DNA of 64,000 nucleotides, taken from positions 1-64,000 of the IMG/VR virus record IMGVR_UViG_3300028534_000514. The stretch is one strand, 5' to 3'. The translations under genes were made by a program, and so were the position numbers. Position 1 is the first letter of the stretch, and every line of letters begins with the position of its first letter. The notes under the pieces are model-generated. The model did not search any database and had not been told where the DNA came from. It saw only the letters and a program-made list of their open reading frames with translations. Below are positions 8,915 through 63,424 of this stretch, in pieces. Origin of the DNA: a virus. Taxonomy: Duplodnaviria > Heunggongvirae > Uroviricota > Caudoviricetes.

Positions 8915-8920
8915 TTAAAT

Positions 8921-9339: not shown

Positions 9340-9384
9340 TTCTCTTCCTTTTTTCTCAATTTTTTTAATAGGGAATATCTTCTT

Positions 9385-9471: not shown

Positions 9472-9489
9472 ATATAAAATAAACAATTG

Positions 9490-9566: not shown

Positions 9567-9571
9567 TTGAT

Positions 9572-49919: not shown

Positions 49920-51158
49920 ATGAGACGAAATCCATTATATGTTTTTGATAATCTGGATTCTAAAGGAATCTATAATGTTCCTCTTGAATCAACTGTCCAA
50001 ATTAATGATGCGGATGGAAACGGATCAACATTGATTGTCCAAGTTAGTTCTAAAGATAATATGGATGTGAATACGACCATCCGAGATTTTTTACAGCTTG
50101 AGGACAATTATGAAAGACCTGGCACTATAGGAATGCTTACTGATGATGCAAAAGGGCAACCAGATGGTGTAGCACCTCTCGATGAGAATGGTTTAATTCC
50201 TGGACGTTATATCCCAACGATGGATATTAATAATGCTTACGTTGTAAATACTGTACAGGATATGTTAGATATATCAAATACTAGCCAGGCTAATATAGGG
50301 GATGTTTGTATTGTCACGGATACAAATGAGACTTATATTTACAATGGCGATCATACAGGTACTGTTGCAGACTGGACAAAACTTATTATTAATATAGGAG
50401 ATGTTCAATCTGTAAATGGGAAAACGGGTGTTGTTGTATTAAATGCTGATGATATTGATGAAGGCGCAATTAATCGTTATATGAATCCAACGTCTTTTAA
50501 AGATTATTTTAGACAGGAGCCCATTCAAAATTTATCGAATGTAATTGATGGTCCTGCTAATGTTGGAGACGCCTTAACTTTTGATGGAACGAATTGGGGA
50601 GCTGCCCAGATCCCACAAAAAGTAGTTTCTGTTAATGGATTTGATGGGGTTGTTAATCTAACCACTTCTGAAATTTCTGAAAATGGAAATCTTTATTATA
50701 CAGATGATAGAGTAGATAGCCGTATTCAAACTGAATGGATCGACCCAATTTCTGGTATAGGTGATTATAATAAAATATGGTCAGCTGACAAGATTGCTAC
50801 TGAATTATCATATTTAACTACTAAAGATTATGTTGATAATGGACTAGAATTGAAATTTGATAAAGTTGGTGGGACAATTACAGGGGATGTTTTAATCGAT
50901 GGACAATTGACATTATCAAATGGCGATATTAAAATTGGCGATAGTAATGGTATTTCTTTATATCCAGATGCTGCCCCAACGACAGACTGGGAACCAACCG
51001 AACCAGATAGTTTAGTAAGAAAAGACTATGTTGATGGGGAAATTGCATCAAGAGTTGCAGTTGATCCTGGAGATTCAATAGCTACTGATATTGAACAGTT
51101 AGTATCAGATTATAATGACCTTCTTTCTAATTTAAGAAATGCTGGTATTATAGCATAA
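49920..51158 (+). CDS. tail-fibre paralogue (412 aa)
   Basis: N-terminus MRRNPLYVFDNLDSKGIYNVPLESTVQINDADGNG. SD aaaaaggagaaataATG. Shares SVNGQTG.VVL..DDI.EG..NLYYTD motif with the 1566-aa protein. Confidence 0.6.
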   Translation: MRRNPLYVFDNLDSKGIYNVPLESTVQINDADGNGSTLIVQVSSKDNMDVNTTIRDFLQLEDNYERPGTIGMLTDDAKGQPDGVAPLDENGLIPGRYIPTMDINNAYVVNTVQDMLDISNTSQANIGDVCIVTDTNETYIYNGDHTGTVADWTKLIINIGDVQSVNGKTGVVVLNADDIDEGAINRYMNPTSFKDYFRQEPIQNLSNVIDGPANVGDALTFDGTNWGAAQIPQKVVSVNGFDGVVNLTTSEISENGNLYYTDDRVDSRIQTEWIDPISGIGDYNKIWSADKIATELSYLTTKDYVDNGLELKFDKVGGTITGDVLIDGQLTLSNGDIKIGDSNGISLYPDAAPTTDWEPTEPDSLVRKDYVDGEIASRVAVDPGDSIATDIEQLVSDYNDLLSNLRNAGIIA

Positions 51159-51171
51159 AAAAAGAAAGATT

Positions 51172-51212
51172 ATTTTCGAGCAATTGCTACTTTTGAGCAA
51201 AAGCTCGAAAAT
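51172..51212. repeat. GAGCAATTGCTA palindromic element copy with palindromic flanks, intergenic
   Basis: attttcgagcaattgctacttttgagcaaaagctcgaaaat. Confidence 0.7.
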
Positions 51213-51230
51213 CTTCCTGTGCTTTATATT

Positions 51231-51246
51231 TCAACAAAGATATATT
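51231..51246 (+). promoter_or_regulatory. late-promoter-like motif TCAACAAAGATATATT
   Basis: ~25 nt upstream of the ATG at 51269. Confidence 0.5.
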
Positions 51247-51268
51247 ATTTAAAACTTAGGAGATTCAA

Positions 51269-54067
51269 ATGAAACGAAATCCGTTATACGTCTTTGATAA
51301 TTTACAATCGACCGGTATATATAATGTACCAGTCGATTCTACTATACAAATCAATGACGTAGATTCGCAAGGTACCCCAAAAATTATTCAGTTAACTTCC
51401 AAAGAAGGATTGACTCCTGATTCAACTATAGCACACTTTTTATCATTAAATGATAATTATGTTGATCTCAACGAAGCTACTGAGATACCATCAGAGCTTG
51501 AAAAAATTGAGCAGAATGGCAAAATTGGTTGGAGAATTCTCGGTAGAGAAGAAACAGATTATGGTCCAATAGGAAAAGAGGCTTTTGATTTTAGTAAAGC
51601 TTTTAATATCACAGATCCCTCTGCTAATTATGGAGCCACTGGCGATTACTCCTTCGCTGAAGGATACAGAACTAAAGCCGTTGGCTGGGCTTCGCACGCC
51701 GAAGGGTTAGGCACGATTGCTTTGGGAAAGGCAAGCCATGCCATGGGATTATATAATGTTGGTCAAAATCCAAATAATATTCTCGAGATTGGTTGTGGGC
51801 TTGGTATCGGTACACGAGAGAACGCTCTTGAGATAACAACCGACGGGGAAATAACAGCACCAAATTTATCAATTAATAAAATTAATAATAAAGGACAACA
51901 ATCCCTTGTTACAAAAGAATACAGTGACCAAAATTTAAATTCTAAAGTTAATAAAGCTGGAGATACAATAACAGGAAATCTTTATGTTATAGGAGACAAT
52001 CCGAGTTTTGATTACTCGTTCACCAATGAAGGGTTAGCCCTATTTAAAAATGGGGTAACCCTTGAAAAAACTATCAAGATTGGTTTAAATAGTTCTTTTA
52101 ATTCCGAAATTATCTTTACTGATAATAATCAAAATTTAAATCCTTCTATTTATTGGTCAGATACATACAAAGATTTTTATATTAAAAATAGTATTCGGCC
52201 GGATAATAAGATATGGCATAGTGGTAACGATGGTGAAAACTCTGAACTAAGTGCAGGATATTTAGGGACTTATCGTTGGGATGAAATTGCTCCAAAGACA
52301 TACGTTGATAATGGATTAGAATCGAAATTTGATAAAATTGGCGGTCAAATAACAGGAGATGTATCTATAGATGGTGATTTACTTGTTTTTGGAAGAACCC
52401 AAACTCAAAGTCTTCGTATATTAGATAATGTTGTAGTTGACGGAACAAGTACGTTTAGACAACAGGTAATATGTGATACCAATTTTATTTCGAATTCAAG
52501 AGTATATTTAAACGAGTTATATGCCGCCTCCGGTACTATAAAAACAATATCTGATATTGAATTTAATAAATCGTATTTTAATGATATTCCTGAATTTGCT
52601 TTTGGTTTATTTATTAAATCAAATAATGGGAAATCATCTGTTGATTTTGAAAACCCAAATACTGGAAATAATACTTCCATCTTTTGGAGCACGACCGATA
52701 ATGCATTCATGGTAACTGATTCCGATGGTAATGATTATAAATTATATCATGGAGGGGAACTTCCACCGTCTTCCGGGGTTTCGGAATTTGACCAATTAAC
52801 AGATACACCCTCATCAAAAGTTGGTAATAGTCAAAAATATCTAAGAGTATCTACAGATGAATCAACTCTTTATTATGATGAGTTAGATGCAACACAAATA
52901 ATTGATGATACTGCTGGGAATAATATTACTGATAAAACCTGGTCAGCAAATAAGATATATGATGAATTACTTACAAAACTTAATATAAATGGTGGTAGCA
53001 TTTCTGGTTCACTTGCTATCTCGAATAATCTGACCGTAAATGTTGATGCGTATATCGCGAATTCATTACAGGTAGATGGTGGTTTAGCTGCAGATACCTT
53101 TACTTCGAATGAAGTTGACTTTTTAGGAAAAGTTGTTATATCTAATGATTTAAATGTAAATTCTATAACTAGAACACAAGGGTTATTTATATATGCCGAT
53201 TCAAATAATAATGATCGTTCAAGTATAGCTTTCGAAGAACTTGCTAACCCTGTTGGTGTAAAGCCAGCTTTATATTGGGATAATACAGATGAACTTTTTA
53301 AAATAGATGATAATTATGGAATTGGGCAAGAGCTTTGGCATAATGGTAATCTAAATTTAGATGGTTTTGTGCGTACTGATCAACAAAATTCATTTGCCGA
53401 GCTAAATTACTTTAATGGTGGGTTAGATGTTACACAATATCCATTAACTACTGACGAATTAGAAGTAAAACTTGGGAGAATTTTCATAGGCCCTGATGGA
53501 AATTATGAATCAGGTATAGAATGTGATGATTATGACACAAGCACTACCCCACCAACAGCAACTGGAGATATTCCAAGATTTTATTGGGATCCTAATGCTA
53601 AACAATGGGCAGTAAATGCATGGGACTTTTTAAATCAGGATGCGAATGGAGATCCAGATCCAGTATTTAGTCAAAATTTACGTGTTTGGCATATGGGGAA
53701 TTTTAATCCTGATACAAAATTTGAGGTTATCGGTGGGGATATTTTTGGTGATGTTCATATTCAAGCTAGTCCAACTAACAATGGTAATGGCGATTTAACT
53801 GTTGATGGTGATTTAACTGTTGGTGGCGCGGTTGTTTATGATGATATTGGTACTGTAAATCTTACAGTTTCCGGTAATGTTTCTTTCGATGGAACGGAAA
53901 CTGGAGATCAAGATTTTTCTATCGCAGGAGATGTTAGAATTACAATTGATTCAGACGAGGTTAATTTTAATGGGACACAAATCTTTATGAATAATTTACC
54001 AACAAGTGATCCTGGAAATTCTGGTCAATTATGGAATGATGCTGGGACTCTAAAGATTTCATTATAG
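51269..54067 (+). CDS. tail-fibre paralogue (932 aa)
   Basis: N-terminus MKRNPLYVFDNLQSTGIYNVPVDSTIQINDVDSQG. Contains a 62-nt stretch identical to 45353-45414 (TEIPSELEKIEQNGKIGWRIL). Confidence 0.65.
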   Translation: MKRNPLYVFDNLQSTGIYNVPVDSTIQINDVDSQGTPKIIQLTSKEGLTPDSTIAHFLSLNDNYVDLNEATEIPSELEKIEQNGKIGWRILGREETDYGPIGKEAFDFSKAFNITDPSANYGATGDYSFAEGYRTKAVGWASHAEGLGTIALGKASHAMGLYNVGQNPNNILEIGCGLGIGTRENALEITTDGEITAPNLSINKINNKGQQSLVTKEYSDQNLNSKVNKAGDTITGNLYVIGDNPSFDYSFTNEGLALFKNGVTLEKTIKIGLNSSFNSEIIFTDNNQNLNPSIYWSDTYKDFYIKNSIRPDNKIWHSGNDGENSELSAGYLGTYRWDEIAPKTYVDNGLESKFDKIGGQITGDVSIDGDLLVFGRTQTQSLRILDNVVVDGTSTFRQQVICDTNFISNSRVYLNELYAASGTIKTISDIEFNKSYFNDIPEFAFGLFIKSNNGKSSVDFENPNTGNNTSIFWSTTDNAFMVTDSDGNDYKLYHGGELPPSSGVSEFDQLTDTPSSKVGNSQKYLRVSTDESTLYYDELDATQIIDDTAGNNITDKTWSANKIYDELLTKLNINGGSISGSLAISNNLTVNVDAYIANSLQVDGGLAADTFTSNEVDFLGKVVISNDLNVNSITRTQGLFIYADSNNNDRSSIAFEELANPVGVKPALYWDNTDELFKIDDNYGIGQELWHNGNLNLDGFVRTDQQNSFAELNYFNGGLDVTQYPLTTDELEVKLGRIFIGPDGNYESGIECDDYDTSTTPPTATGDIPRFYWDPNAKQWAVNAWDFLNQDANGDPDPVFSQNLRVWHMGNFNPDTKFEVIGGDIFGDVHIQASPTNNGNGDLTVDGDLTVGGAVVYDDIGTVNLTVSGNVSFDGTETGDQDFSIAGDVRITIDSDEVNFNGTQIFMNNLPTSDPGNSGQLWNDAGTLKISL

Positions 54068-54203
54068 CAAATATAAATATTAATTAAAGACTCGAGATAG
54101 AGTCGGTGGGAAAATTCGGGCAATAGGCTCGGGGCACCCCACCACCCTTTCTTGTTCCCAATTTTTTTACTCAATTGGGTGGTTTTGCTCTAAAGTAGCA
54201 GAA
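54068..54203. other. GC-rich structured non-coding region
   Basis: Nested inverted repeats (gactcgagatagagtc; ggtggg...cccacc; ccaccc...gggtgg) in an otherwise AT-rich genome. No ORF. Confidence 0.35.
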
Positions 54204-54206
54204 ATG

Positions 54207-54243
54207 ATTATTTTCGAGCAATTGCTCAAAAAGAGCAAAGCCC
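54207..54243. repeat. GAGCAATTGCTC palindromic element copy, upstream of the sulfotransferase-like gene
   Basis: attattttcgagcaattgctcaaaaagagcaaagcc. Confidence 0.7.
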
Positions 54244-54263
54244 TATTTTTAAAAGGAATACTA

Positions 54264-55025
54264 ATGTATACAATCGAATCGAATAATGAAATAAAGACTT
54301 TTATGCACCCAGTTAAATCCGCTGGAATTTCTGTTCATACCGGAATTATTAGTGCAAGCAATAACTATAATTATAGAGTCCATGTTAATCAACGACATGC
54401 ACATATTAGAAATTTACCGGAAATTTATAGAGACTATCCAAAATATACTGTATTACGCGAACCACATAAATGGTACAAGAGTTTCCAATCTTTTTTCACA
54501 GGGGTTGAGGGGTATCTTTCTTGGGCGTTGACGGACCCAAAAGAAGATGGTTATATCTATCCAATTAAGCCAGATGAGTTCATAAGACGCATGATGAATA
54601 TGAAAAATACTCTGATCGAATTTCCGAATAAAGCTAGAGTCTTTCGTAATCTTCTTCGCAGTCAAGGGAATATGCACTTTATTACGGGATATTTTGAAAG
54701 CGATTTTCATCCTGAAGATGAGCAATCAATGGAACAATTTGATATGTCATTATATAGATGGTTTACGAATCCGATGGGAGAAGATACTATTTTCATACCA
54801 ATGAATCGTCTTGATATTATAGAAAAAGTATTCAATATAAAGATTCCACATGTTAATAGAACTGACCCTAATAAACAGAATTTTGAATATTCAGAAGAAT
54901 CCATTGAATTAATTAAAAGGGTTGATGTTGAATACTATAAAATGATTGAAACTTTTGATGAAAATAATCTATTGACCTTTAAAGAATGGAGGGAAAAATA
55001 TGGCGAGGTGTTTAACGACCGATGA
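54264..55025 (+). CDS. possible sulfotransferase-fold protein (253 aa; start revised to MYTIES)
   Basis: The track ORF starts at 54204 inside the repeat element. The internal start has SD aaaaggaatactaATG. Weak PAPS-binding-like motifs: HPVKSAGIS (5'-PSB PKxGTT-like) and TVLREPHKWYKSF (3'-PB R.P....S-like). Weak call. Confidence 0.35.
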   Translation: MYTIESNNEIKTFMHPVKSAGISVHTGIISASNNYNYRVHVNQRHAHIRNLPEIYRDYPKYTVLREPHKWYKSFQSFFTGVEGYLSWALTDPKEDGYIYPIKPDEFIRRMMNMKNTLIEFPNKARVFRNLLRSQGNMHFITGYFESDFHPEDEQSMEQFDMSLYRWFTNPMGEDTIFIPMNRLDIIEKVFNIKIPHVNRTDPNKQNFEYSEESIELIKRVDVEYYKMIETFDENNLLTFKEWREKYGEVFNDR

Positions 55026-55097
55026 ATTCATAAAAAAAGCTAGGAAAACAGAATTCTTTAAAGAAGATATTCTTCAATTAAATAAAAAAGGAAATAA

Positions 55098-55958
55098 ATG
55101 ATAGTTGCATTATTGGGTAAAGCTGGAGCTGGTAAAACTACGATCGCCGAAGCCCTTGAAAGAATTACACCAGATAGTTTTATTATTGATGGGGATGATC
55201 TAAGAGCCGAGACAAATAACAATGATATTGGTATTGATGGCCGAGAAAAGAATATGCATTTGGGATATAGTAGAGCGCACTGGCTTTCTGATCTCGGATT
55301 TACGGTTTTTGTCGCAATGCAGGCACCAATTAAAGAAATTCGTGAAAAATATCTAGATGAAAATGATATTCAAATAGTAATTAATAATAGCGGACCGAAC
55401 CCAAAAGATGATAAAGGGTATAATAAAAATTTCTCCGCCGATTATAGTGACGTTGATATGGAAATCGAATTTGTAGATTTCAATGCCGAGGAACTATACA
55501 ATAAAATTTTTCCAAAAGTGTTGGTAATTGCACGATTTCAAGGCATTCATAAAGGACATAAAATTGTTATGGAGGTCGCGAAAAGATTATCTCCAAATAT
55601 TACTCTTGCCTTAAGAGTAGATGAAGATGATGAAATTGATCTCGAAAAAAATATACTACTTGCCTCAGAAGTATTTCCATTTGCTGATGTTATCAAATCT
55701 CCTGATCTTGATGATCCTAATGAAGAATGGGAAAATTTTGTATCTCAATATGATATCGTTGTTCAAGGCAACCCCATGGTAATTGAAAAATTTCAAAAAG
55801 CTATTGATGATAATAAGATTAAACTAAAGTTTGTCCCGAGAGTCGGGCATGTTTCAGCAACCAAAATTAGGGAAGCTGTTAAAAATGGGGACGAAGAATT
55901 TGCAAGAAGAAATATAGCAGATCCAAAAGTTCTAGAATTATTAAAGGAAATTAAATGA
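55098..55958 (+). CDS. fusion protein: APS-kinase-like P-loop kinase + HxGH (cytidylyltransferase-like) nucleotidyltransferase
   Basis: N-domain LLGKAGAGKTTIA ... IIDGDDLRAETNNNDIGIDGREKNMHLGYSRAHWLSDLGFTVFVAMQAP matches the APS kinase (CysC) LDGDN.R...dLgF...dR.ENiRR....ISP signature. C-domain ARFQGIHKGH (HxGH) and VSATKIRE (ISSTxIR-like). Confidence 0.55.
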   Translation: MIVALLGKAGAGKTTIAEALERITPDSFIIDGDDLRAETNNNDIGIDGREKNMHLGYSRAHWLSDLGFTVFVAMQAPIKEIREKYLDENDIQIVINNSGPNPKDDKGYNKNFSADYSDVDMEIEFVDFNAEELYNKIFPKVLVIARFQGIHKGHKIVMEVAKRLSPNITLALRVDEDDEIDLEKNILLASEVFPFADVIKSPDLDDPNEEWENFVSQYDIVVQGNPMVIEKFQKAIDDNKIKLKFVPRVGHVSATKIREAVKNGDEEFARRNIADPKVLELLKEIK

Positions 55959-56161
55959 CAAATATAAATGAAGAGACCAGATTTTATACAGCAACTGCTG
56001 AATATTTTAATGAGGTTGAGGATAAATTGGATACCATTACCTGTGGTATCTTTGCAAAAAGTGCGATAGATGCAGAAACTCAAATTAGAGAGGATTTTGG
56101 AAATCATTTTTCAAGAATTAAAACAATTGAGGTTATTGACCACATTACCCCAATCTTTTAG
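55955..56161 (+). CDS. hypothetical protein (68 aa)
   Basis: ORF track. ATGA overlap. Confidence 0.35.
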   Translation: MTNINEETRFYTATAEYFNEVEDKLDTITCGIFAKSAIDAETQIREDFGNHFSRIKTIEVIDHITPIF

Positions 56162-56170
56162 GACTCGGAA

Positions 56171-56416
56171 ATGCAATCATGTGAACCACCTTCTTTATTA
56201 TGGTTGAAAGCTATAATTTATAGAATAGTTAGAATATGTATAGTATTTATTTCCGGTTATTTTATTCTCGGAGATACATCAACTGCGATGGAAATAGCTG
56301 GGGTTGACCTAATTGCGGCCACTTTATTCTATTATTATTTTGATAAGTGGTGGTGTCATCTAGAAAGAAAAATAAGACAATTATATTTAAAATGGAAATA
56401 TAGAAAACTTGGTTAG
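56171..56416 (+). CDS. small membrane protein (81 aa)
   Basis: Two hydrophobic helices. Confidence 0.35.
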   Translation: MQSCEPPSLLWLKAIIYRIVRICIVFISGYFILGDTSTAMEIAGVDLIAATLFYYYFDKWWCHLERKIRQLYLKWKYRKLG

Positions 56417-56424
56417 TAACTAAA

Positions 56425-56444
56425 CGAGAGGGAAATTCCTCTCG
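56425..56444 (+). terminator. hairpin cgagaggg-aaat-tcctctcg followed by TTTTCCTGTGCC
   Basis: Directly after the stop at 56416. The AACAAAGAT motif follows at 56461-56477. Confidence 0.55.
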
Positions 56445-56504
56445 TTTTCCTGTGCCTGGGATTTCAACAAAGATAAGAAAGAATAAAGATAAAAGGAATA
56501 TAAA

Positions 56505-57368
56505 ATGCCTAAAATTCTAATGAAGAGAAATGATATATCAGGCGTGGCTCCAGATGTGTCAGAAATAGAGCTTGGCGAAATAACTATTAATACCTATGAC
56601 GGAAAATTATATACAAAAATAAATAATGGTACGGAAGCGATTATTGAAATTGGTGGTTCTGGTGGTACCCCAACGGGTTTAGAATTAATAGATGAAGGAA
56701 GAGGTCCGGGTTGGCGTTTGATTGGGCGAGACCCAGATAACTACGGAGAGATGGCTCGAGATGCAGTTGATGTTTCATCAAGTTATTCTCATAGCTTGGC
56801 TAATGGCGCCACAGGGCAGGCTTCATTCGCCGCAAATATTAATACGAAAGCAATGGGACTTGGTTCAGCCGCTTTTAATAATGAAAATTATGCTATTGGG
56901 GACTATTCCTTTGCTATAGGGACAAAAACCAAAGCGACAGGTATGGCCTCTTTTGCTGCTGGTTTCGCATCAGAGGCTTCTGGATACTGCGCAATTTCTA
57001 TGGGGTACGGTGCAACAGCAAGCGCGAAAGCTTCGTTTAGTTGTGGTAGAAACACAAATGCTAAAAATGAAAATAGTGTTGCAATGGGCTCTTATAATCT
57101 TGGTAGTTCTGATGATACACTATTTGAATTTGGTATTGGTTATTTTGATAGTTCTACAGGCGCACATAAAAAGAATGCTTTCGAGATATATAATGATGGA
57201 AAATTAACTGCCCCTGAATTAACACCGGATATTGTCGATACTGATCTTAATAATTTAGTTCCGGTTAGTTATCTACTTAGTCCAGAATTTGGTAATAGAT
57301 TGCCAACTATACCTGGAGATCCAGGAACATTATATAAAGATGAAAATGGTTTTGTAAAGGTCTCTTAA
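56505..57368 (+). CDS. tail-fibre-like protein (287 aa), second paralogue family
   Basis: N-terminal domain MPKILMKRNDISGVAPDVSEIELGEITINTYDGKLYTKINNGT, then a G/A/S-rich region with YSFA.G repeats. Confidence 0.55.
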   Translation: MPKILMKRNDISGVAPDVSEIELGEITINTYDGKLYTKINNGTEAIIEIGGSGGTPTGLELIDEGRGPGWRLIGRDPDNYGEMARDAVDVSSSYSHSLANGATGQASFAANINTKAMGLGSAAFNNENYAIGDYSFAIGTKTKATGMASFAAGFASEASGYCAISMGYGATASAKASFSCGRNTNAKNENSVAMGSYNLGSSDDTLFEFGIGYFDSSTGAHKKNAFEIYNDGKLTAPELTPDIVDTDLNNLVPVSYLLSPEFGNRLPTIPGDPGTLYKDENGFVKVS

Positions 57369-57370
57369 GT

Positions 57371-57388
57371 TTTTAACAAAGATTTATA
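57371..57388 (+). promoter_or_regulatory. late-promoter-like motif TTTTAACAAAGATTTATA
   Basis: ~30 nt upstream of the ATG at 57418. Confidence 0.5.
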
Positions 57389-57417
57389 GTAGAAAAAGAT
57401 AAAGATAAAGGATAAAT

Positions 57418-59826
57418 ATGCCTCGCATTATACTTAAAAAGAATTCAAGTGCTGGTAGTGTCCCATTAAATTCTGAATTGGAATTGGGTGAATTAGCAAT
57501 AAATACAAATGATGGTAAATTATTTACTAAAAAATTTGATGGTGTTCGTGAGTCGGTCGTTGAGATCGGTGGCGGAGGAACCCCTACTGGATTGGAGGCT
57601 CTAGATGAAGGTAATGGAATCGGTTGGCGTTTAATCGGTCGAGATCCAAATGTTTATGGCGATATCGGATTCCAAGCAGTCGATTTTAGTTATAAAGATC
57701 CGACAAATGAAGTGTCTACTTTAAGGGGAGCAACCGGTCAAGGATCAACGGCATTTGGTTATGATACTATAGCCAGTAATAATGATTCATTTGCTGTTGG
57801 TTATAAAACTAATGCTAATGGCGATCATTCCTTCGCTGAAGGAAATTTTACATCAGCAGATGGCATTGGTTCACATGCCGAAGGGTTAGGTACAAAAGCC
57901 ACTGGTAATTATAGTCACGCAGAAGGACGCAATACTTATGCTGCAGCTTATTATAGTCACGCCTCTGGTTCGTACACAACTGCGGGTTATATTAACCAAT
58001 TTGTAATTGGTACAAATAACCTTAATAAATCAACTACTTATTTTGAGGTCGGTAACGGTACAGGTGGTTCGGGCGGCGATGATAGCAATGCCTTCGAGGT
58101 TTATAGAACAGGTGAGATTTTTGCACCGGTGTTAACACCTTCTTTAATTGATAATGCTGACAATAAAGTTCTTGTTACTAAAGAATGGGTTCAAGCTAAT
58201 GCTGGGTCCGGTGGGAATCTAATTAATATTGATAATGGTTATGGAATTCCAGAAGCTGTTGATAATACAGGTACCGTTGGAACAAGAGCTATTGATTTTT
58301 CTGTTAACGGTGACGGCGCTACAGGAACAGGAAGTTTAGCCGTCGGAGAATATAATGAAGCTTCAGGAAATTACGCAGTAGCGTTTGGAGGATACGCAAC
58401 AGCAAGTGGAAATTATTCCTTCGCCGTTGGTTATGGTATAAAGGCAAGTGAAAGTTGCTCAATAGCCACTGGGTATAATACAACTGCCTCAGGTAGCTAT
58501 TCAAGTGCTTCTGGGTATTATACAACGGCTAGTGGTGATTATTCAACAGCTTTTGGATATTATGCAACAGCAAGTGGTGATTATTCAACAGCTTTTGGTG
58601 TGAATACGAGCGCATCCGGGACAAACTCATTTGCTATTGGTTATAGAACAGTAGCTAATAAAGAAAGTATGGTTGCTGTTGGTAAATATAATGCAGCCTT
58701 CGAAGATAATCAAATATTTGTAGTTGGTATTGGTACCGCTATGGAAGATTATAGGAATGGACTTGAGGTATTTACTGATGGGCGTGTTCAGGCACCGGAA
58801 CTATCTATTGCTTTAATTGATGATGCTAATACAAGCGATAGAGTTCTCGTTACACGAGAATGGGTTCAAGCTAATGCTGGTGGAGGAAATCCAACTGGAT
58901 TGGAAGCTCTGGATGAAGGTAATGGAATCGGTTGGAGATTAATTGGCCGAGATCCAGATAACTATGGTGACATCGGACTGAACGCTATTGATTTAAGTTA
59001 TTATGATCAATCTAGCACAGATCGTGGAGCAACAGGTACCGGATCATTTACTGTTGGCTACGCTGTTCGTGCACAAGCTGATTATTCAGCAGCTTTTGGT
59101 TATTCGACCACAGCTAAAGGTAATTATACAATTACTCAAGGTTATCATACTACAGCTTACGCTACAGGATCACATTCTGAAGGTAAAGGAACAGCTACTT
59201 ATGCAGATTATTCCCACGCTGAGGGTGTAAATACATATACTTATAATACCGGTGCTCACTCTGAGGGTTATCAGACAAACGCCGCGGCTGAATACAGTCA
59301 CGCTGAAGGTGTCCATACCCAAGCTAGTGGCTATGCTTCGCACGCTGAGGGATTCTATACACAGACAAGTAATGACTACTGTCATGTTATGGGTACCTAT
59401 AACGTAGATACTGATTATACAGTTATGCAAGTTGGTATCGGTGATAGCTCAACACGAAAAAATGCTTTTGAAGTATTTACAGACGGAACATTATATGCAC
59501 CTGAACTATCAACGACTGTTATAAATAATGCTGATCCACGAGTTCTTATCACAAAAGAATACGCTGATGCGAACTACGGTGGTTCTGGCGGAGTTGCTTC
59601 TCTTAACGACATCGGGGATGTCGACGTTGCAGGTGTAACCGATGGTCAAATTATTCAATGGAGTGCTGGTTCAAGCACTTGGTTAGCAACTGATCTTCCG
59701 GGTGGTGGAAACCTTCTATCAGATGGTAGTGTTCCGATGGATACAGGTTATACACCAGTAAATGATCAGGATATTGCTACAAAATATTATGTAGATAATC
59801 ATGATGTTGATGGAGGAACGTTCTAG
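57418..59826 (+). CDS. tail-fibre protein (802 aa) with YadA/Hep_Hag-like 14-residue repeats
   Basis: N-terminus MPRIILKKNSSAGSVPLNSELELGELAINTNDGKLFTKKFDG. Dozens of (S/Y)SHAEG..T.A.G.YSHA repeats. Internal duplication of GTPTGLEALDEGNGIGWRLIGRDP. Confidence 0.6.
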   Translation: MPRIILKKNSSAGSVPLNSELELGELAINTNDGKLFTKKFDGVRESVVEIGGGGTPTGLEALDEGNGIGWRLIGRDPNVYGDIGFQAVDFSYKDPTNEVSTLRGATGQGSTAFGYDTIASNNDSFAVGYKTNANGDHSFAEGNFTSADGIGSHAEGLGTKATGNYSHAEGRNTYAAAYYSHASGSYTTAGYINQFVIGTNNLNKSTTYFEVGNGTGGSGGDDSNAFEVYRTGEIFAPVLTPSLIDNADNKVLVTKEWVQANAGSGGNLINIDNGYGIPEAVDNTGTVGTRAIDFSVNGDGATGTGSLAVGEYNEASGNYAVAFGGYATASGNYSFAVGYGIKASESCSIATGYNTTASGSYSSASGYYTTASGDYSTAFGYYATASGDYSTAFGVNTSASGTNSFAIGYRTVANKESMVAVGKYNAAFEDNQIFVVGIGTAMEDYRNGLEVFTDGRVQAPELSIALIDDANTSDRVLVTREWVQANAGGGNPTGLEALDEGNGIGWRLIGRDPDNYGDIGLNAIDLSYYDQSSTDRGATGTGSFTVGYAVRAQADYSAAFGYSTTAKGNYTITQGYHTTAYATGSHSEGKGTATYADYSHAEGVNTYTYNTGAHSEGYQTNAAAEYSHAEGVHTQASGYASHAEGFYTQTSNDYCHVMGTYNVDTDYTVMQVGIGDSSTRKNAFEVFTDGTLYAPELSTTVINNADPRVLITKEYADANYGGSGGVASLNDIGDVDVAGVTDGQIIQWSAGSSTWLATDLPGGGNLLSDGSVPMDTGYTPVNDQDIATKYYVDNHDVDGGTF

Positions 59827-59828
59827 TT

Positions 59829-60524
59829 ATGTCTGATAAACTATTCGGTCCGTGGATTCGGACTAAACCAAAATATATTTTTGATATTTTTGAGGATAAT
59901 AGTTCCGTTGCGTTATACCCTTTTGATAATAGTTTAGTAGACTATGGAAATGTTCATCATCTTCATGTTCATGCCGGTATAAATCAATTCGGTTCAGGAG
60001 TATTATCCACTTCAGAGATATCGTCAGGAGTAGTTCTAAGAACTGCCCCAAATGATTATTTATTCCAAAATAATCATTATACAGTTTCCTTTTGGATTCG
60101 AGGACATTCGGAGATGAGTACAGATAATTGGCCAGGTATTTTTGCACAAGGACCAGATGGTCCTTATGGCACACAATTAATTATAAATGACAGTTTAGAG
60201 TTAAGAATATCGTATGGACACGCCGTAACCTATTTAACTGGTGCTTTTATCGTCGAAGGAGAGTGGCATCATGTTATTATATCATCGGATGGAGCCAATG
60301 GTGCTGATGTATATTACGATGGTAGCGCCATTAAACATCTTGATGAATTAGAAAGTAATACTGATAGTAATAATAACATTGGGTGTACATCAATAAAAAG
60401 TTATTATAATGCCTATTATGATACAGAATATATGATAGACGCAGATATTGATCATTTTAGAATTTTTAACAGAGGAATATCCTCAGAAGAAGCTCTTGCT
60501 CTTTACCAAGAAAAAAAATTATAA
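59829..60524 (+). CDS. concanavalin A-like lectin / LamG-like domain protein (231 aa)
   Basis: EGEWHHVIISSDGANGADVYYDGSAI is the LamG-type W.HV..T.DG....LYVDG pattern. ATGA-type coupling to the upstream fibre gene. Confidence 0.5.
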   Translation: MSDKLFGPWIRTKPKYIFDIFEDNSSVALYPFDNSLVDYGNVHHLHVHAGINQFGSGVLSTSEISSGVVLRTAPNDYLFQNNHYTVSFWIRGHSEMSTDNWPGIFAQGPDGPYGTQLIINDSLELRISYGHAVTYLTGAFIVEGEWHHVIISSDGANGADVYYDGSAIKHLDELESNTDSNNNIGCTSIKSYYNAYYDTEYMIDADIDHFRIFNRGISSEEALALYQEKKL

Positions 60525-60535
60525 TAATTATTAGA

Positions 60536-60552
60536 ATAACAAAATATTACAA
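60536..60552 (+). promoter_or_regulatory. late-promoter-like variant AATAACAAAATATTACA
   Basis: ~22 nt upstream of the ATG at 60574. Confidence 0.35.
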
Positions 60553-60573
60553 TTAAATATAAAAGGATTTTAA

Positions 60574-62061
60574 ATGGCTATTAGCATTCAATTAAAAAGA
60601 GGACCAAGTACTAATCTTGGAAATATTACTGCGAAAGATGGAGAACTCGTTTGGTTAACGGACGAAAAACGTTTTAGAGTCGGTTCAGACGATGGTACTA
60701 CTCAATCTTGGCAAACCCTTAGTTATGCACAGATTGATTCAAATGGTTTAGTTCCATCAACTCAGCTGCCAATTGACGATACAGCTGGTGTTGGAGATAC
60801 TGGAAAATTACTTTCTGCTGATGAAATTGCAAATAGATTAACTTCTGGTGCTACTTATCTTGGATTATGGAATCCAGACGGTTCAGGTGGACCAGGTACA
60901 CCAGCCCTTAGTGATGGAACTGGGGATAATGGAGACTTCTATATTGTTGAAACTGGTGGCGACGCTGATTTCGGTAGCGGAACAATTACCTTCATCGAAG
61001 GTGATAGAGTTATGTATCAAACAAGTGATAATACTTGGAAAAGAATTGTTTCTGCAAATAGTGTTGACTCAGTAAATGGTCAAACAGGTGTAGTTATTCT
61101 TGGAATGAATGATATTAATGATGTCATCATTGATAGCGGAACATTGGCTGCTGATGACTATATTAAATGGGATCCAACAGCTGATGGTGGTAATGGAGCT
61201 TGGGTAAATGCAGCACCACAATCAGTTGCTATTGATGACTTGAGTGATGTTGATACAACTACTGTTGCCCCAACTGTAGGTCAAACACTTAAATGGGACG
61301 GAACAAACTGGACTCCACAAGATGACAACAACTCAATTGCTAGTCTTGATGATATCGGCGATGTTAATGTTACTGGTGTAACTGATGGACAGATTATTGT
61401 TTGGGACGATGCTTCCGGCGAATGGCAGGCAAGTGATCTTCCAACTGGTGTTGATGGTACCTTTATTGGATTAACAGATACCCCAAGTGCATACAATAGT
61501 GGTGATGCCGGCAAATTTGTAAAAGTTAATGCTGCAGAAGATGGACTTGAGTTTGTAGAAGTAACTACTGATGGTATTGCTGAAGGTTCTACAAATCTAT
61601 ATTATACAGATGCTCGTGTTGATGGTAGAATTGCCGCTGCTAATATTGAAGACCTAGCTAACGTAACTGTTACTAGTGTTTCAGATAATGAAATTCTTCA
61701 GTGGAATTCAAGTACAAGTCAATGGGAAAATGTAGCAATCTCTAACGTAACTGTTCAAAGCATTGATGATCTTGATGATGTTGATACTTCTACAACTGCA
61801 CCTACTGATGGTCAAACACTTAAATGGGATGCAGCCAACAGTCAGTGGGTACCTGCTGATGATATTGATACAGATACAACTTATACTTCTGGCACAGGAA
61901 TCTTTATCGATGAAGAAGGCGGAAATTCAATTAATCTTGATGCTGGAATTGATCTATTGACTGATGTTGATACAACAACTACTGCTCCGAGTACAGACGA
62001 TGTTCTTTCATGGGATGGTACAAACTGGGTACCAACTGCTATTGATGGTGGACAATTCTAG
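60574..62061 (+). CDS. tail-fibre-like protein (495 aa) with D/T/V-rich repeats
   Basis: Repeats D(D/V)DTTT(V/T)AP(T/S)(V/D)GQTLKWDG(T/A)NW and NLYYTDARVD, also present in the 1566-aa fibre. Confidence 0.55.
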   Translation: MAISIQLKRGPSTNLGNITAKDGELVWLTDEKRFRVGSDDGTTQSWQTLSYAQIDSNGLVPSTQLPIDDTAGVGDTGKLLSADEIANRLTSGATYLGLWNPDGSGGPGTPALSDGTGDNGDFYIVETGGDADFGSGTITFIEGDRVMYQTSDNTWKRIVSANSVDSVNGQTGVVILGMNDINDVIIDSGTLAADDYIKWDPTADGGNGAWVNAAPQSVAIDDLSDVDTTTVAPTVGQTLKWDGTNWTPQDDNNSIASLDDIGDVNVTGVTDGQIIVWDDASGEWQASDLPTGVDGTFIGLTDTPSAYNSGDAGKFVKVNAAEDGLEFVEVTTDGIAEGSTNLYYTDARVDGRIAAANIEDLANVTVTSVSDNEILQWNSSTSQWENVAISNVTVQSIDDLDDVDTSTTAPTDGQTLKWDAANSQWVPADDIDTDTTYTSGTGIFIDEEGGNSINLDAGIDLLTDVDTTTTAPSTDDVLSWDGTNWVPTAIDGGQF

Positions 62062-62072
62062 GAATAAGCTTT

Positions 62073-62086
62073 GCGACTTCGGTCGC
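62073..62086 (+). terminator. hairpin gcgac-ttcg-gtcgc followed by GGGCTTTTTCCTGTGCT
   Basis: After the stop at 62061. The AACAAAAGAT motif follows at 62111-62127. Confidence 0.5.
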
Positions 62087-62252
62087 GGGCTTTTTCCTGT
62101 GCTTAAAAATTTTCAACAAAAGATTACGATATATATCGTATCTAAAGTGAATAAGTCCTCTGGACTTATCTAAAAACCTGCGGTTTTTAGATTGTGAAAA
62201 ATTCACTTTTCAAAATAAAATCAAAAGTTATTTGATTTAAAAAATCAAATGA

Positions 62253-62303
62253 TTATTTTAGAGCAATTGCTCAAAAGGAGCAATTGCTCTATTATAGCAA
62301 AGC
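62253..62303. repeat. double copy of the GAGCAATTGCTC palindrome, intergenic
   Basis: attttagagcaattgctcaaaaggagcaattgctctattatagcaaagcc. Confidence 0.7.
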
Positions 62304-62320
62304 CTAAATAGGAGAGACAT

Positions 62321-63424
62321 ATGGCACAAACAATAAAACTAAAAAGGTCAGCGACTGCTGGTAAAGTACCAGCTACAACAGACTTAGAACTGGGTGAAAT
62401 AGCAATTAATACTTATGATGGAAAAGTGTTTATTAAAAAAGATGATGGTTCTGAATCTATAGTAGAGGTAACATCCGCTTCGGGTGGAGGAGAACTTATT
62501 AAAGACGGTGTTGGGTATCGTATTAATGGTTTATCTAATGATACCTTGGGTACAAATGCGGTTAACTTAGCTGTCGGAGGTATAGCGAGCGATTATGCTT
62601 CTTTTACTGAAGGTTATCAAACTGAAGCGCGTGATGATTACGCGCATGCAGAGGGGAATGCAACCCTTGCTTCTGGAAAAGGTTCACACGCTGAAGGATA
62701 TTATACAGAAGCAAGCGGTAATTACTCGCACGCGGAAGGCTATAAAACAAAGGCAACCAATGATTATGGTTCTCACGCTGAAGGTAATTATACAACGGCT
62801 AGTGGAGTATCGTCTCATGCAGAAGGTTATAAAACTGAATCTGGTGGAATTTATTCACATGCTGAAGGTAATGTAACAACAGCTGAGGGATATGGTTCCC
62901 ATTCAGAAGGTGGGTTAACTAAAGCGAGCGGTTATTACTCTCATGCTGAAGGATATTTTACAATTGCTCAAAATGATCATATGCATGTCGAGGGTAAATA
63001 TAACGTAGGAACAGCCACTGATACAATTCATGAAACAGGTATTGGTGCCGATGGTGATAAGAAAAATGCTTTCGAAATCTATATTGATGGTAAAGTAGTT
63101 GCTCCAGAATTAACAACTACTTTAATTGATGATACCAATACTTCCAATAAAGTTCTTGTTACTAAAGAATGGGTTCAAGCTAATACCGGGGGCGGCGGAG
63201 TCTCTAGAACAGTTGAGAAACTTACAGGTGACGGTTCAACAACAAGCTTTACTTTAACTAACACTTATGTTGTGGGTTCAGAAACCCTAGTAGATGTATA
63301 TGTTGATGGTCTTCTTAAAATAGAAGGTAGTTCTGAAGATTATACATTATCTAACGGGGATACACTGGATTTTACAACTGCACCAAGTAATGGTTCGGCT
63401 ATTATTGTAAAAATTTTAAGTTAA
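62321..63424 (+). CDS. tail-fibre-like protein (367 aa) with Hep_Hag-like repeats
   Basis: N-terminus MAQTIKLKRSATAGKVPATTDLELGEIAINTYDGKVFIKKDDG. Repeats YSHAEGY.T.A. Confidence 0.55.
   Translation: MAQTIKLKRSATAGKVPATTDLELGEIAINTYDGKVFIKKDDGSESIVEVTSASGGGELIKDGVGYRINGLSNDTLGTNAVNLAVGGIASDYASFTEGYQTEARDDYAHAEGNATLASGKGSHAEGYYTEASGNYSHAEGYKTKATNDYGSHAEGNYTTASGVSSHAEGYKTESGGIYSHAEGNVTTAEGYGSHSEGGLTKASGYYSHAEGYFTIAQNDHMHVEGKYNVGTATDTIHETGIGADGDKKNAFEIYIDGKVVAPELTTTLIDDTNTSNKVLVTKEWVQANTGGGGVSRTVEKLTGDGSTTSFTLTNTYVVGSETLVDVYVDGLLKIEGSSEDYTLSNGDTLDFTTAPSNGSAIIVKILS

What the first reader, a model, noticed from the sequence alone, without database searches (positions are those of the whole stretch)
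54264..55958. Candidate sulfation / nucleotide-activation module inside the tail-fibre cluster
55098-55958 fuses an APS-kinase-like domain (P-loop plus DGDDLR and REKN motifs) to an HxGH nucleotidyltransferase domain (FQGIHKGH; SATKIRE).

Kinase plus nucleotidyltransferase is the logic of enzymes that make activated donors (PAPS synthase has APS kinase plus ATP sulfurylase; HldE has kinase plus adenylyltransferase).

The adjacent gene 54264-55025 has weak sulfotransferase-like PAPS-binding motifs. A ConA/LamG-like lectin gene (59829-60524) is also embedded in the cluster.

Together they suggest that the phage modifies (sulfates or nucleotidylates) either its own fibres or a host surface glycan. 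This is uncommon for phages.
Basis: inference. Interest (0 to 1): 0.8.

Follow-up and report, generated by a model that had tools for sequence, protein, structure and literature searches.

The report
Phage sulfation-type donor-and-transferase gene module
An uncultured giant phage carries a conserved gene set that looks built to make an activated sulfate-type donor and transfer it to an unknown target: a sulfotransferase-like enzyme, a two-domain kinase/nucleotidyltransferase and a tiny membrane protein, a combination found in no cultured phage or cellular genome searched.

Summary

These genes, plus a DUF2061 two-helix membrane protein (56171-56416), form a conserved module. Of 32 metagenomic loci with the fusion, 26 carry a sulfotransferase-like gene and 27 carry DUF2061. 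The genes often overlap by 4 nt, and once the sulfotransferase is fused in frame to the kinase.

The module is not tied to tail fibres. It also sits in glycan operons (GT2, Stealth, SDR) and between terminase genes. The LamG gene is not part of it.

Most likely (about 0.5) it makes PAPS, or a PAPS-like 3'-phosphonucleotide donor, and transfers the group to a glycan or the virion.

The NTase domain's substrate is unresolved. It resembles NMNAT and glycerol-3-phosphate cytidylyltransferase about equally, and not canonical ATP sulfurylase. A NadR/PnuC-like NAD+ salvage role (NARP3 analogue) is the main rival.

I rate it a new variant of a known kind, interest about 0.65.

The parts
54264..55025 (+). 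Divergent PAPS-type sulfotransferase-like protein (253 aa). The 5'-PSB-like loop is V17-K18-S-A20-G21-I-S23 (nt 54312-54332). The candidate catalytic residues are N42/R44/H45 (H45 at nt 54396-54398). The 3'-PB-like motif is R65-E-P67-H-K-W70-Y71-K-S73 (nt 54456-54482).
55098..55502 (+). N-terminal APS-kinase-like P-loop kinase domain of the 286-aa fusion (res 1-135). It carries the P-loop (nt 55116-55139), DGDDLR (nt 55188-55205) and G48-R49-E-K-N52. The lid is shortened, and MQAP replaces the canonical FISP.
   Evidence: Pfam APS_kinase E 1.7e-6, above the gathering score. Profile against PDB gives APS kinases at E 7e-9. Foldseek hits are APS kinases and PAPSS1 at E about 1e-6. hhalign to E. 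coli CysC gives 94% over res 2-83, against 17% to the NadR kinase domain.
55503..55958 (+). C-terminal small HIGH-motif nucleotidyltransferase domain (res 136-286) plus the stop codon. It carries R146-F-Q-G-I-H151-K-G-H154 (nt 55533-55559) and V-S-A-T255-K-I-R258-E (nt 55851-55874). R173, D175, D178, N185, W211 and Q223-G-N-P226 are invariant and specific to the family.
   Evidence: Alignments. The C-domain profile against PDB gives TagD glycerol-3-phosphate cytidylyltransferase at E 2.4e-8, MJ0541 archaeal NMNAT at 7.4e-8, PPAT at about 6e-3 and no ATP sulfurylase. The best Foldseek C-domain hit is PPAT at 1.4e-5.
55955..56161 (+). 68-aa ORF that overlaps the fusion's stop codon by 4 nt. It has no homologue in any other locus, so its membership in the module is doubtful.
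   Evidence: phmmer finds it only in L001, which is the same sequence. No Pfam or PHROG hit.
56171..56416 (+). DUF2061 two-helix membrane protein (81 aa), the most constant partner of the fusion.
   Evidence: Pfam DUF2061 E 5.4e-11. All 18 phage homologues match DUF2061. It is present in 27 of 32 loci that carry the fusion. That includes the distant L019, where only this pair sits between the terminase genes.
56428..56453 (+). Terminator-like hairpin followed by a T-rich run, 12 nt after the DUF2061 stop codon. It may mark the end of the transcription unit.
   Evidence: It is a consensus match only; the number of such sites in the region (3) is not above the shuffled expectation (1.5).
59829..60524 (+). 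LamG/ConA-like protein inside the fibre cluster. It is context only and is not conserved with the module.
   Evidence: Pfam Laminin_G_3 E 1.1e-14. It is absent from the conserved neighbour sets.

Best explanation
This is a self-contained group-transfer module of the PAPS type, carried by uncultured phages, many of them jumbo phages.

Proposed mechanism:
1. The 286-aa protein makes the donor. Its C-terminal HIGH-motif nucleotidyltransferase joins a nucleotide to a small anionic group. The simplest case is ATP + sulfate -> APS + PPi.
2. Its N-terminal APS-kinase-type domain then phosphorylates the 3'-OH of that nucleotide (APS -> PAPS).
3. The adjacent sulfotransferase-fold enzyme binds the 3'-phosphonucleotide donor through its conserved 5'-PSB and 3'-PB motifs. 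It transfers the group, most likely sulfate, to an acceptor.
4. The DUF2061 two-helix membrane protein either anchors the system at the inner membrane or moves a substrate across it.

The acceptor is probably a glycan (host envelope polysaccharide or a phage-made glycan) or a virion fibre. This is suggested because the module lies in fibre clusters or in GT2/Stealth/SDR operons.

Shown here: the domain identities, the sulfotransferase fold and motifs, and the tight genetic coupling of the three genes.

Inferred: the chemistry of each step, that the NTase domain acts on sulfate, the order NTase then kinase, the role of DUF2061, and the acceptor.
For: Kinase domain:
- It is APS-kinase-like by Pfam (above gathering), PDB profile (E 7e-9), Foldseek, and hhalign to CysC (94%).
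- DGDxxR, R49 and N52 are invariant. They align to the DGDNVR and DRKEN segments of E. coli CysC.

Neighbour:
- Its remote relatives fall into Pfam Sulfotransfer_1/2.
- K18 is invariant, and R65-x-P-x5-S73 has the 8-residue R-to-S spacing that I recall from cytosolic sulfotransferases. That argues for a donor carrying a 3'-phosphate, which is exactly what an APS-type kinase makes.

Coupling:
- A sulfotransferase-like ORF is present in 26 of 32 loci and DUF2061 in 27 of 32.
- Loci carry 1-3 sulfotransferase paralogues each.
- 4-nt overlaps link the genes in L002, L008 and L030, and the ORFs also overlap in L027 and L028.
- P0191 is an in-frame sulfotransferase-kinase fusion.
- The sulfotransferase-like protein has no tblastn match at E <= 5 in 50,697 phage genomes, so the co-occurrence is not background.

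Other:
- Extended operons add GT2, Stealth_CR2 and SDR genes.
- Kinase at the N terminus followed by a nucleotidyltransferase-fold domain is the layout of human PAPS synthetase, the top Foldseek hit.
Against: - The NTase domain has no detectable sequence similarity to canonical ATP sulfurylase. It is equally close to NMNAT and to glycerol-3-phosphate cytidylyltransferase.
- The canonical FISP serine of APS kinases is replaced (MQAP), and the lid is shortened.
- NCBIfam equivalog cut-offs for APS kinase are far from met (28 bits against 138.7).
- Some loci carry the fusion plus DUF2061 with no sulfotransferase in the DNA available (L013, L019).
- Distant cultured-phage relatives with the same architecture (Xylella phage Sano gp35, Stenotrophomonas phage DLP_6 gp227) sit in DNA-metabolism regions. 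In Sano the gene lies next to a NADAR-domain gene. That hints at nucleotide or NAD+ metabolism for the wider superfamily.
- No enzyme assay exists.
Confidence: 0.5

Rival explanations
1. PAPS-like but non-sulfate donor, following the logic of the Campylobacter jejuni O-methyl-phosphoramidate pathway. The NTase domain makes a CDP- or ADP-linked small group, such as a phosphoramidate, phosphate ester or phosphonate. The APS-kinase-like domain adds the 3'-phosphate. The sulfotransferase-fold enzyme then transfers that group to a surface glycan.
For: - In C. jejuni, Cj1415-Cj1418 make CDP-phosphoramidate 3'-phosphate as the donor for capsule decoration (PMC11800397). Cj1415 is an APS-kinase homologue (my own knowledge, not tested here).
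- The best PDB match of the C-domain profile is a cytidylyltransferase, TagD (E 2.4e-8).
- The module sits with GT2, Stealth phosphotransferase-like and SDR genes.
- Some homologues were binned with Epsilonproteobacteria MAGs.
Against: - No glutamine-kinase or hydrolase counterparts were seen in any locus.
- All characterised enzymes of the sulfotransferase fold transfer sulfate from PAPS (my own knowledge).
- Nothing here indicates cytidine rather than adenosine specificity.
Confidence: 0.15
2. NAD+ salvage, as a non-homologous analogue of the phage NARP3 system (a PnuC-like transporter plus a NadR-like NMNAT/ribosylnicotinamide kinase). DUF2061 imports a pyridine nucleoside, the kinase makes NMN, and the NMNAT-like domain makes NAD+ to counter NAD+-depleting defences. 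The sulfotransferase would be an unrelated neighbour.
For: - NARP3 is a two-gene phage module: a membrane transporter plus a bifunctional kinase/NMNAT (PMC13464706).
- The C-domain carries the RFQxxHxGH and SxTxIR motifs and aligns to archaeal NMNAT at E 7e-8.
- The fusion-DUF2061 pair occurs without a sulfotransferase in L019 and L013.
- Sano gp35, with the same architecture, lies next to a NADAR-domain gene.
- JGI names several family members NMN adenylyltransferase.
Against: - hhalign of the family to E. coli NadR gives only 17% for the kinase part and no hit for the NMNAT part, against 94% to CysC.
- TagD matches the C-domain as well as NMNAT does.
- It does not explain the sulfotransferase in 26 of 32 loci, the 4-nt overlaps or the in-frame fusion P0191.
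- DUF2061 has two helices and no similarity to PnuC.
Confidence: 0.13
3. Only the kinase domain matters for sulfation. The host supplies APS and the phage adds APS kinase so that PAPS exists for its sulfotransferase. Alternatively, the fusion is simply a 'cysC-like' auxiliary metabolic gene that boosts assimilatory sulfate reduction. The NTase domain would have a separate or regulatory role.
For: - Viral cysC genes are widely listed as auxiliary metabolic genes in viromics surveys.
- Kinase-only variants exist in L016/L017, and a decayed version in L020.
- There is no similarity between the C-domain and ATP sulfurylase.
Against: - The NTase catalytic motifs are invariant across 45 homologues and in the distant L019, Sano and DLP_6 versions. 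The domain is therefore under selection together with the kinase.
- pTM 0.87 suggests a fixed two-domain assembly.
- An assimilation gene would not need 1-3 sulfotransferase paralogues beside it.
Confidence: 0.12
4. CoA-synthase-like enzyme: a PPAT-like adenylyltransferase plus a dephospho-CoA-kinase-like 3'-kinase, as in human COASY. It would supply CoA or an analogue.
For: - The best Foldseek match to the C-domain is PPAT/CoaD (E 1.4e-5, TM 0.69).
- PPAT also appears in the sequence search at E about 6e-3.
- Dephospho-CoA kinase also phosphorylates a 3'-OH (my own knowledge).
Against: - The Pfam CoaE hit is weak (E 0.08, P-loop only), whereas the APS-kinase-type motifs (DGDxxR, GRExN) are conserved.
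- No enzyme with a sulfotransferase fold is known to use CoA (my own knowledge).
Confidence: 0.03

Closest known systems
Metazoan bifunctional PAPS synthase (PAPSS1/2)
   Same: It is one polypeptide with an N-terminal APS kinase followed by a nucleotidyltransferase-superfamily domain. It was the top Foldseek hit. Its logic is to activate the group and then 3'-phosphorylate.
   Different: The C-domain here is about 150 aa and resembles NMNAT or glycerol-3-phosphate cytidylyltransferase, not the much larger ATP sulfurylase domain (size from memory). There is no sequence match to any ATP sulfurylase. The kinase lid is shortened and FISP becomes MQAP. It is phage-borne and linked to DUF2061.
PAPS-dependent sulfotransferases (Pfam Sulfotransfer_1/2; cytosolic SULTs, heparan sulfate sulfotransferases, StaL, Stf)
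   Different: No Pfam model hits the window protein directly. Identity to solved structures is about 10%. It is small (about 250 aa), and the acceptor is unknown.
Campylobacter jejuni MeOPN donor pathway (Cj1415-Cj1418)
   Same: An APS-kinase homologue 3'-phosphorylates a nucleotide-activated small group made by a nucleotidyltransferase. The PAPS-like donor decorates a surface polysaccharide (PMC11800397).
   Different: That pathway needs a glutamine kinase and a hydrolase that are absent here. Its enzymes are separate proteins. Whether its transferases resemble the phage sulfotransferase-like protein could not be tested.
Phage NARP3 (PnuC-like transporter plus NadR-like NMNAT/RNK; PMC13464706)
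   Same: It is a compact phage module of a membrane protein plus a bifunctional kinase and HIGH-motif nucleotidyltransferase.
   Different: The domain order is reversed. The kinase here is APS-type, not RNK-type (hhalign 17% to NadR against 94% to CysC). The membrane partner has 2 helices, not a PnuC fold. A sulfotransferase is linked to it.
phrog_10255 'kinase' (Xylella phage Sano gp35; Stenotrophomonas phage DLP_6 AAY80_227)
   Same: It has the same APS_kinase plus CTP_transf_like two-domain architecture. hhalign probability is 98% (full length for DLP_6 gp227; residues 3-205 for Sano gp35).
   Different: Identity is about 25%. The motif is GRYQPxHxGH. The genes lie in DNA-metabolism regions, with no sulfotransferase or DUF2061 beside them, and a NADAR gene sits next to the Sano copy. 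They are uncharacterised.

Membership tests
APS kinase (PF01583 / CysC) | P-loop GxxGxGK(S/T) | tested here: met
   GKAGAGKT at res 7-14. G7, G10, G12 and K13 are invariant.
APS kinase (PF01583 / CysC) | DGDxxR after strand 2, and the R/N of the DRxEN segment (APS and Mg2+ binding) | tested here: met
   D31-G-D33-x-x-R36, R49 and N52 are invariant. hhalign aligns them to DGDNVR and DRKEN of E. coli CysC at 94% probability.
APS kinase (PF01583 / CysC) | FISP motif serine and a full-length lid (profile positions 92-152) | tested here: not met
   MQAP replaces FISP. Pfam and hhalign matches stop at about residue 84-88. The domain is about 135 aa against 201 aa for E. coli CysC.
APS kinase (PF01583 / CysC) | Curated model thresholds | tested here: inconclusive
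   The Pfam gathering score is passed (28.6 against 21.1 bits). NCBIfam equivalog and subfamily cut-offs are far from met (28 against 138.7 bits).
APS kinase (PF01583 / CysC) | Converts APS to PAPS | not testable with these tools
   This needs an enzyme assay or delta-cysC complementation.
HIGH-motif nucleotidyltransferases (PF01467; NMNAT, GCT, PPAT) | HxGH motif after strand 1, and the C-terminal (I/V)S(A/G)TxIR motif | tested here: met
   H151-K-G-H154 and S253-A-T255-K-I-R258. H151, G153, H154, T255 and R258 are invariant. Profile against PDB gives TagD at 2.4e-8 and MJ0541 NMNAT at 7.4e-8. The single-sequence Pfam score is just below gathering (18.7 against 21).
Canonical ATP sulfurylase (Sat, PF01747) | QxRNPxHxxH and GRD motifs; sequence or profile similarity | tested here: not met
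   No ATP sulfurylase chain appears among the PDB profile hits of the C-domain at E <= 1. The histidine motif here follows the FQxxHxGH spacing of NMNAT, not my recollection of the FQxRNPxHxxH spacing of ATP sulfurylase.
NadR (NMNAT plus ribosylnicotinamide kinase) | Profile similarity of both domains to NadR; order NMNAT then RNK | tested here: not met
   hhalign of A1 to E. coli NadR gives 17% probability, kinase P-loop region only. The domain order is reversed.
PAPS-dependent sulfotransferase superfamily (neighbour gene) | 5'-phosphosulfate-binding loop with a catalytic Lys (PKxGTT-like) | tested here: met
   V17-K18-x-A20-G21-x-S23 is invariant in 46 homologues. The consensus of distant relatives is PKxGGxS.
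PAPS-dependent sulfotransferase superfamily (neighbour gene) | 3'-phosphate-binding motif, with R and S eight residues apart at the start of a helix | tested here: met
   R65-E-P67-H-K-W70-Y71-K-S73; R65, P67, W70, Y71 and S73 are invariant. The comparison to the RNPKDxxVS motif of cytosolic SULTs rests on my own knowledge.
PAPS-dependent sulfotransferase superfamily (neighbour gene) | Sulfotransferase fold | tested here: met
PAPS-dependent sulfotransferase superfamily (neighbour gene) | Match to curated family models | tested here: inconclusive
   The window protein has no Pfam hit. 3 of 46 close homologues hit Sulfotransfer_1 weakly (E 0.01). Of 102 distant relatives, 21 hit Sulfotransfer_1 and 16 hit Sulfotransfer_2 (best 3e-14). 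The link is transitive only.
DUF2061 (PF09834) | Pfam model above the gathering score | tested here: met
   43.2 bits against 23.1, E 5.4e-11. All 18 phage homologues match.

The most novel reading that the evidence does not exclude
The roughly 150-aa NMNAT/GCT-like domain is a previously unrecognised third kind of sulfate adenylyltransferase. That would make this 286-aa protein the smallest known complete PAPS synthase. With it, phages would bring a full sulfation system (donor synthesis, transferase and a membrane component) into hosts, to sulfate envelope glycans or their own fibres.
Probability: 0.3. Interest if true: 0.85.

Novelty: new variant of a known kind. Interest (0 to 1): 0.65.

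Why it matters
- Sulfation of bacterial or viral surface molecules by a phage-encoded system appears undescribed. Exact-phrase searches for terms such as "phage-encoded sulfotransferase" found no paper. The sulfotransferase-like protein has no relative in 50,697 sequenced phage genomes.
- If the module works as proposed, phages could rewrite the charge and receptor properties of host envelopes or of their own fibres. That would affect adsorption, superinfection exclusion and immune recognition.
- A 286-aa PAPS synthase would be a useful tool for in vitro sulfation.
- Viromics surveys list such genes as 'cysC' sulfur-assimilation genes. The linkage to sulfotransferases shown here suggests that many of those calls are really about group transfer, not assimilation.
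- If the rival NAD+ reading is right instead, it would be a fourth, non-homologous route of phage NAD+ reconstitution.

Tried and rejected
- INPHARED phages: megablast of 54000-58000 and tblastn of the fusion at E 1e-5 found nothing. At relaxed E only distant relatives appeared. The neighbour and DUF2061 gave no match at all.
- DUF2061 function:
  - A literature search gave only incidental mentions.
  - A homologue search returned only close phage relatives and no domain fusions.
  - hhalign to YgbE, the small membrane protein that follows cysC in E. coli, gave 0.2%.
  - NCBIfam gave a weak PACE/AceI hit in 2 of 18 members (E 0.016), and Pfam gave weak flippase/GtrA hits. I judged these insufficient.
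  - Haloarchaeal plasmid contexts were uninformative.
- Small ORFs beside the Sano and DLP_6 genes are not DUF2061.
- The genome-contig scan found no true family member in 185,579 species genomes, so no host could be inferred.
- The paper on Cj1415 (PMC5938747) is not held. No paper linking MeOPN transferases to sulfotransferases was found.
- P0113, an apparent fusion to an EPSP-synthase-like sequence, looks like an assembly chimera and was ignored.
- The 68-aa ORF 55955-56161 has no homologue elsewhere.
Full report
**1. What is in the sequence**

The region holds four co-directional ORFs:
- 54204/54264-55025
- 55098-55958
- 55955-56161, which overlaps the previous ORF's stop codon by 4 nt
- 56171-56416

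A hairpin followed by a T-rich run lies at 56428-56453, just after the last stop codon. It is a consensus match only.

The genes on both sides are tail-fibre-like. PHROG matches include tail fibre, long-tail-fibre distal subunit N-termini and baseplate-wedge fibre connector. The gene at 59829-60524 is a LamG/ConA-like protein (Pfam Laminin_G_3, E 1.1e-14).

The window belongs to a 285,272-bp contig. It encodes an RNA polymerase beta-like protein, ribonucleotide reductase, a RecJ-like protein, a primase and four tRNAs. It is therefore a jumbo phage. It has no nucleotide relative among 50,697 deposited phage genomes.

**2. The 286-aa fusion protein**

The key residues are invariant across 45 homologues of 54-80% identity: G7, G10, G12, K13, D31, G32, D33, R36, R49, N52, R146, F147, Q148, H151, G153, H154, T255, I257 and R258.

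N-terminal domain (about 135 residues):
- It matches Pfam APS_kinase above the gathering score (E 1.7e-6).
- A family profile finds only APS kinases among solved structures at E < 1e-4 (best 7e-9).
- The AlphaFold model (pLDDT 92.9, pTM 0.87) hits human PAPS synthetase 1 and many APS kinases by Foldseek (E about 1e-6).
- hhalign to E. coli CysC gives 94% over residues 2-83. It aligns DGDDLR with DGDNVR and GREKN with DRKEN.
- The domain is not canonical. MQAP replaces FISP, the lid is short, and NCBIfam equivalog cut-offs are far from met.

C-terminal domain (about 150 residues):
- It is a small HIGH-motif nucleotidyltransferase (NTase).
- A domain-only profile finds TagD glycerol-3-phosphate cytidylyltransferase (2.4e-8) and the archaeal NMNAT MJ0541 (7.4e-8) about equally.
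- It then finds PPAT (about 6e-3), and no ATP sulfurylase.
- Its substrate therefore cannot be read from homology.

**3. The neighbour is a divergent sulfotransferase**

Homologues fix the start at 54264.

Weak direct evidence:
- Direct family scans are empty.
- A PDB sequence-profile search gives only noise.
- Foldseek is not significant, though most of its list is sulfotransferases.

Three independent lines then agree:
- A profile search of 1.84 billion representative proteins finds 185 relatives. Of 102 distant ones, 21 match Pfam Sulfotransfer_1 and 16 match Sulfotransfer_2 (best 3e-14).
- The invariant residues form V17-K18-x-A20-G21-x-S23, N42/R44/H45 and R65-x-P67-x-x-W70-Y71-x-S73. These correspond to the 5'-phosphosulfate-binding loop, a candidate catalytic His and the 3'-phosphate-binding motif. 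R and S are eight residues apart, as in cytosolic sulfotransferases (this last comparison is from my own knowledge).

A conserved 3'-phosphate site matters. It implies a donor with a 3'-phosphate, which is the product of an APS-type kinase.

**4. The genes form a conserved module**

I collected loci by exact-protein look-up, from IMG/VR and from JGI metagenomes. I then scanned all ORFs with HMMs built from the alignments.

Among 32 loci with a full-length fusion:
- 26 carry at least one sulfotransferase-like ORF, and several carry two or three.
- 27 carry a DUF2061 ORF.
- Several of the negatives are contig-end cases.

Signs of co-expression and functional linkage:
- The sulfotransferase and fusion ORFs overlap by 4 nt in L002, L008 and L030, and the ORFs also overlap in L027 and L028.
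- In P0191 the sulfotransferase-like protein is fused in frame to the kinase domain.

An all-against-all comparison of neighbours in the first 16 loci showed further recurrent partners:
- Fibre-like genes in 6 loci.
- Stealth_CR2-like genes in 4, GT2 glycosyltransferases in 4, and a short-chain dehydrogenase (SDR) in 3.
- In L007, L011 and L015 the genes form a six-gene string: fusion, SDR, Stealth, sulfotransferase, GT2, DUF2061.

In the distant L019 (38% identity), only DUF2061 and the fusion are present. They are wedged between the small and large terminase genes.

The module is therefore mobile and is not specifically a fibre accessory. The LamG gene does not travel with it.

No true member was found in one genome each of 185,579 bacterial and archaeal species.

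**5. Mechanism**

The most economical reading is a donor-synthesis plus transfer system of the PAPS type:
1. The NTase domain forms a nucleoside 5'-phospho-X. The simplest case is APS from ATP and sulfate.
2. The kinase domain adds the 3'-phosphate, giving PAPS.
3. The sulfotransferase moves X to an acceptor.

Fusion of APS kinase to the enzyme of the preceding step is common in nature (PAPSS, CysNC, Sat-CysC; my own knowledge, and PDB names). ATP sulfurylase itself belongs to the same HxxH nucleotidyltransferase superfamily (my own knowledge). The chemistry is therefore plausible in this fold.

That this particular domain uses sulfate is inference. It shows no similarity to known ATP sulfurylases.

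The invariant R173, D175, D178 and N185 after strand 2 are specific to this family. They lie where TagD and NMNAT bind their phospho-substrates (my own reading of the alignments). They are the residues to mutate first.

DUF2061 is a two-helix membrane hairpin of unknown function. I could not connect it to any transporter family with confidence.

The acceptor is unknown. The glycan-enzyme neighbours and the fibre-cluster location point to an envelope glycan or a virion component.

**6. Rivals**

(a) A non-sulfate, PAPS-like donor.
- In C. jejuni, Cj1415-Cj1418 make CDP-phosphoramidate 3'-phosphate for capsule decoration (PMC11800397).
- The cytidylyltransferase-like C-domain and the glycan context fit this.
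- The extra enzymes of that pathway are absent here.

(b) NAD+ salvage.
- A paper from August 2026 describes NARP3, a phage PnuC-like transporter plus a NadR-like NMNAT/kinase (PMC13464706). The architectural parallel (membrane protein plus kinase/NTase) is striking.
- The same two-domain architecture occurs at about 25% identity in Xylella phage Sano gp35 and Stenotrophomonas phage DLP_6 gp227. Both lie in DNA-metabolism regions, and the Sano gene is next to a NADAR-domain gene.
- Against it: hhalign to NadR is 17% against 94% to CysC. The sulfotransferase linkage is also left unexplained.

(c) Only the kinase matters (host APS to PAPS), or the gene is a sulfur-assimilation auxiliary gene as viromics papers list 'cysC'. 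The invariant NTase motifs and the sulfotransferase paralogues argue against this.

(d) A CoA-synthase-like enzyme. This is suggested only by PPAT fold hits.

**7. Novelty and verdict**

It needed three corrections:
- The conserved unit is sulfotransferase plus fusion plus DUF2061.
- It is not tied to fibres or to the LamG gene.
- The NTase substrate is open.

The components belong to known superfamilies. The combination has not been described, as far as the searched literature shows: a minimal APS-kinase-like domain fused to an NMNAT/GCT-like domain, coupled to divergent sulfotransferases and a DUF2061 protein, and seen so far only in viral or unassigned metagenomic contigs.

I rate it a new variant of a known kind. 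Interest is 0.65. There is a 0.3 chance that it hides a new type of sulfate adenylyltransferase.

Noticed in passing
window 9770-10774 (-): A phage-encoded permease of the ion-transporter superfamily (Pfam DUF401 E 3.9e-13; CitMHS E 3.6e-6), 334 aa, next to the tRNA cluster. An anion transporter in a phage that also carries a possible sulfate-activating enzyme could be connected, but this is speculation.
   Followed up: partly
window 8756-9646 (-): A cluster of four tRNA genes: Leu(TAA), Ser(GCT), Met(CAT) and Asn(GTT).
   Followed up: no
window 16744-19800 (-): A 1018-aa protein whose residues 318-560 match bacterial RNA polymerase beta subunits (E 1.8e-31). L006, a related 183-kb contig, has a 1413-aa fused beta/beta'-like gene. 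Both point to jumbo phages with their own multisubunit RNA polymerase.
   Followed up: partly
window about 32.7 kb: Gene orientation and GC skew switch sign here. Genes run on the minus strand to the left and on the plus strand to the right, which suggests a divergent transcription point.
   Followed up: no
window 921-1868 (-): An SPFH/Band 7 family protein (Pfam E 1e-19), which is unusual cargo for a phage.
   Followed up: no
window 49920-63424 (+): Several fibre-like paralogues share N-terminal segments (two types: MxRNPLYVFDN... at 49920 and 51269; MPxIxxKR...GExxINTxDGKL at 56505, 57418 and 62321), and three of them carry repeated SHAEG-type units. phrog_25468 repeats are found in 57418-59826 and 62321-63424. 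The phage appears to carry a large, diversified fibre set.
   Followed up: partly
L004 9245-10023: In the 273-kb relative, a DUF723 protein and a 90-aa ORF are inserted between the sulfotransferase and the fusion gene. DUF723 may be homing-endonuclease-like; that is from memory and was not tested. This could be a mobile insertion splitting the operon.
   Followed up: no
L016/L017 (kinase ORF L017 4702-5259), L020 10001-10743, L014 5787-6331: Decayed versions of the module. There is a kinase domain with only about 24 residues of the NTase domain (L016/L017). There is a fragmented kinase plus a sulfotransferase fragment (L020). There is also a sulfotransferase split into two ORFs (L014). These are either real pseudogenes or assembly errors.
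   Followed up: partly
L022 4553-4996 (Xylella phage Sano gp34) and L022 1199-1876 (gp28): The distant cultured-phage relative of the fusion lies directly downstream of a NADAR-domain gene (E 6.4e-26). It is also 3 kb from a gene annotated as cysteine dioxygenase. One neighbour hints at NAD+/ADP-ribose metabolism and the other at sulfur metabolism.
   Followed up: partly
L021 2015-2338 (E. coli K-12 ygbE): In E. coli, cysDNC is followed by a small inner-membrane protein, YgbE (DUF3561). This echoes the phage arrangement of kinase followed by a small membrane protein, but YgbE is not related to DUF2061 (hhalign 0.2%).
   Followed up: yes
P0113 (307 aa, 1.2-kb contig): A family member whose C-terminus switches to an EPSP-synthase-like sequence (PF00275) after the middle of the NTase domain. 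It is probably an assembly chimera.
   Followed up: no
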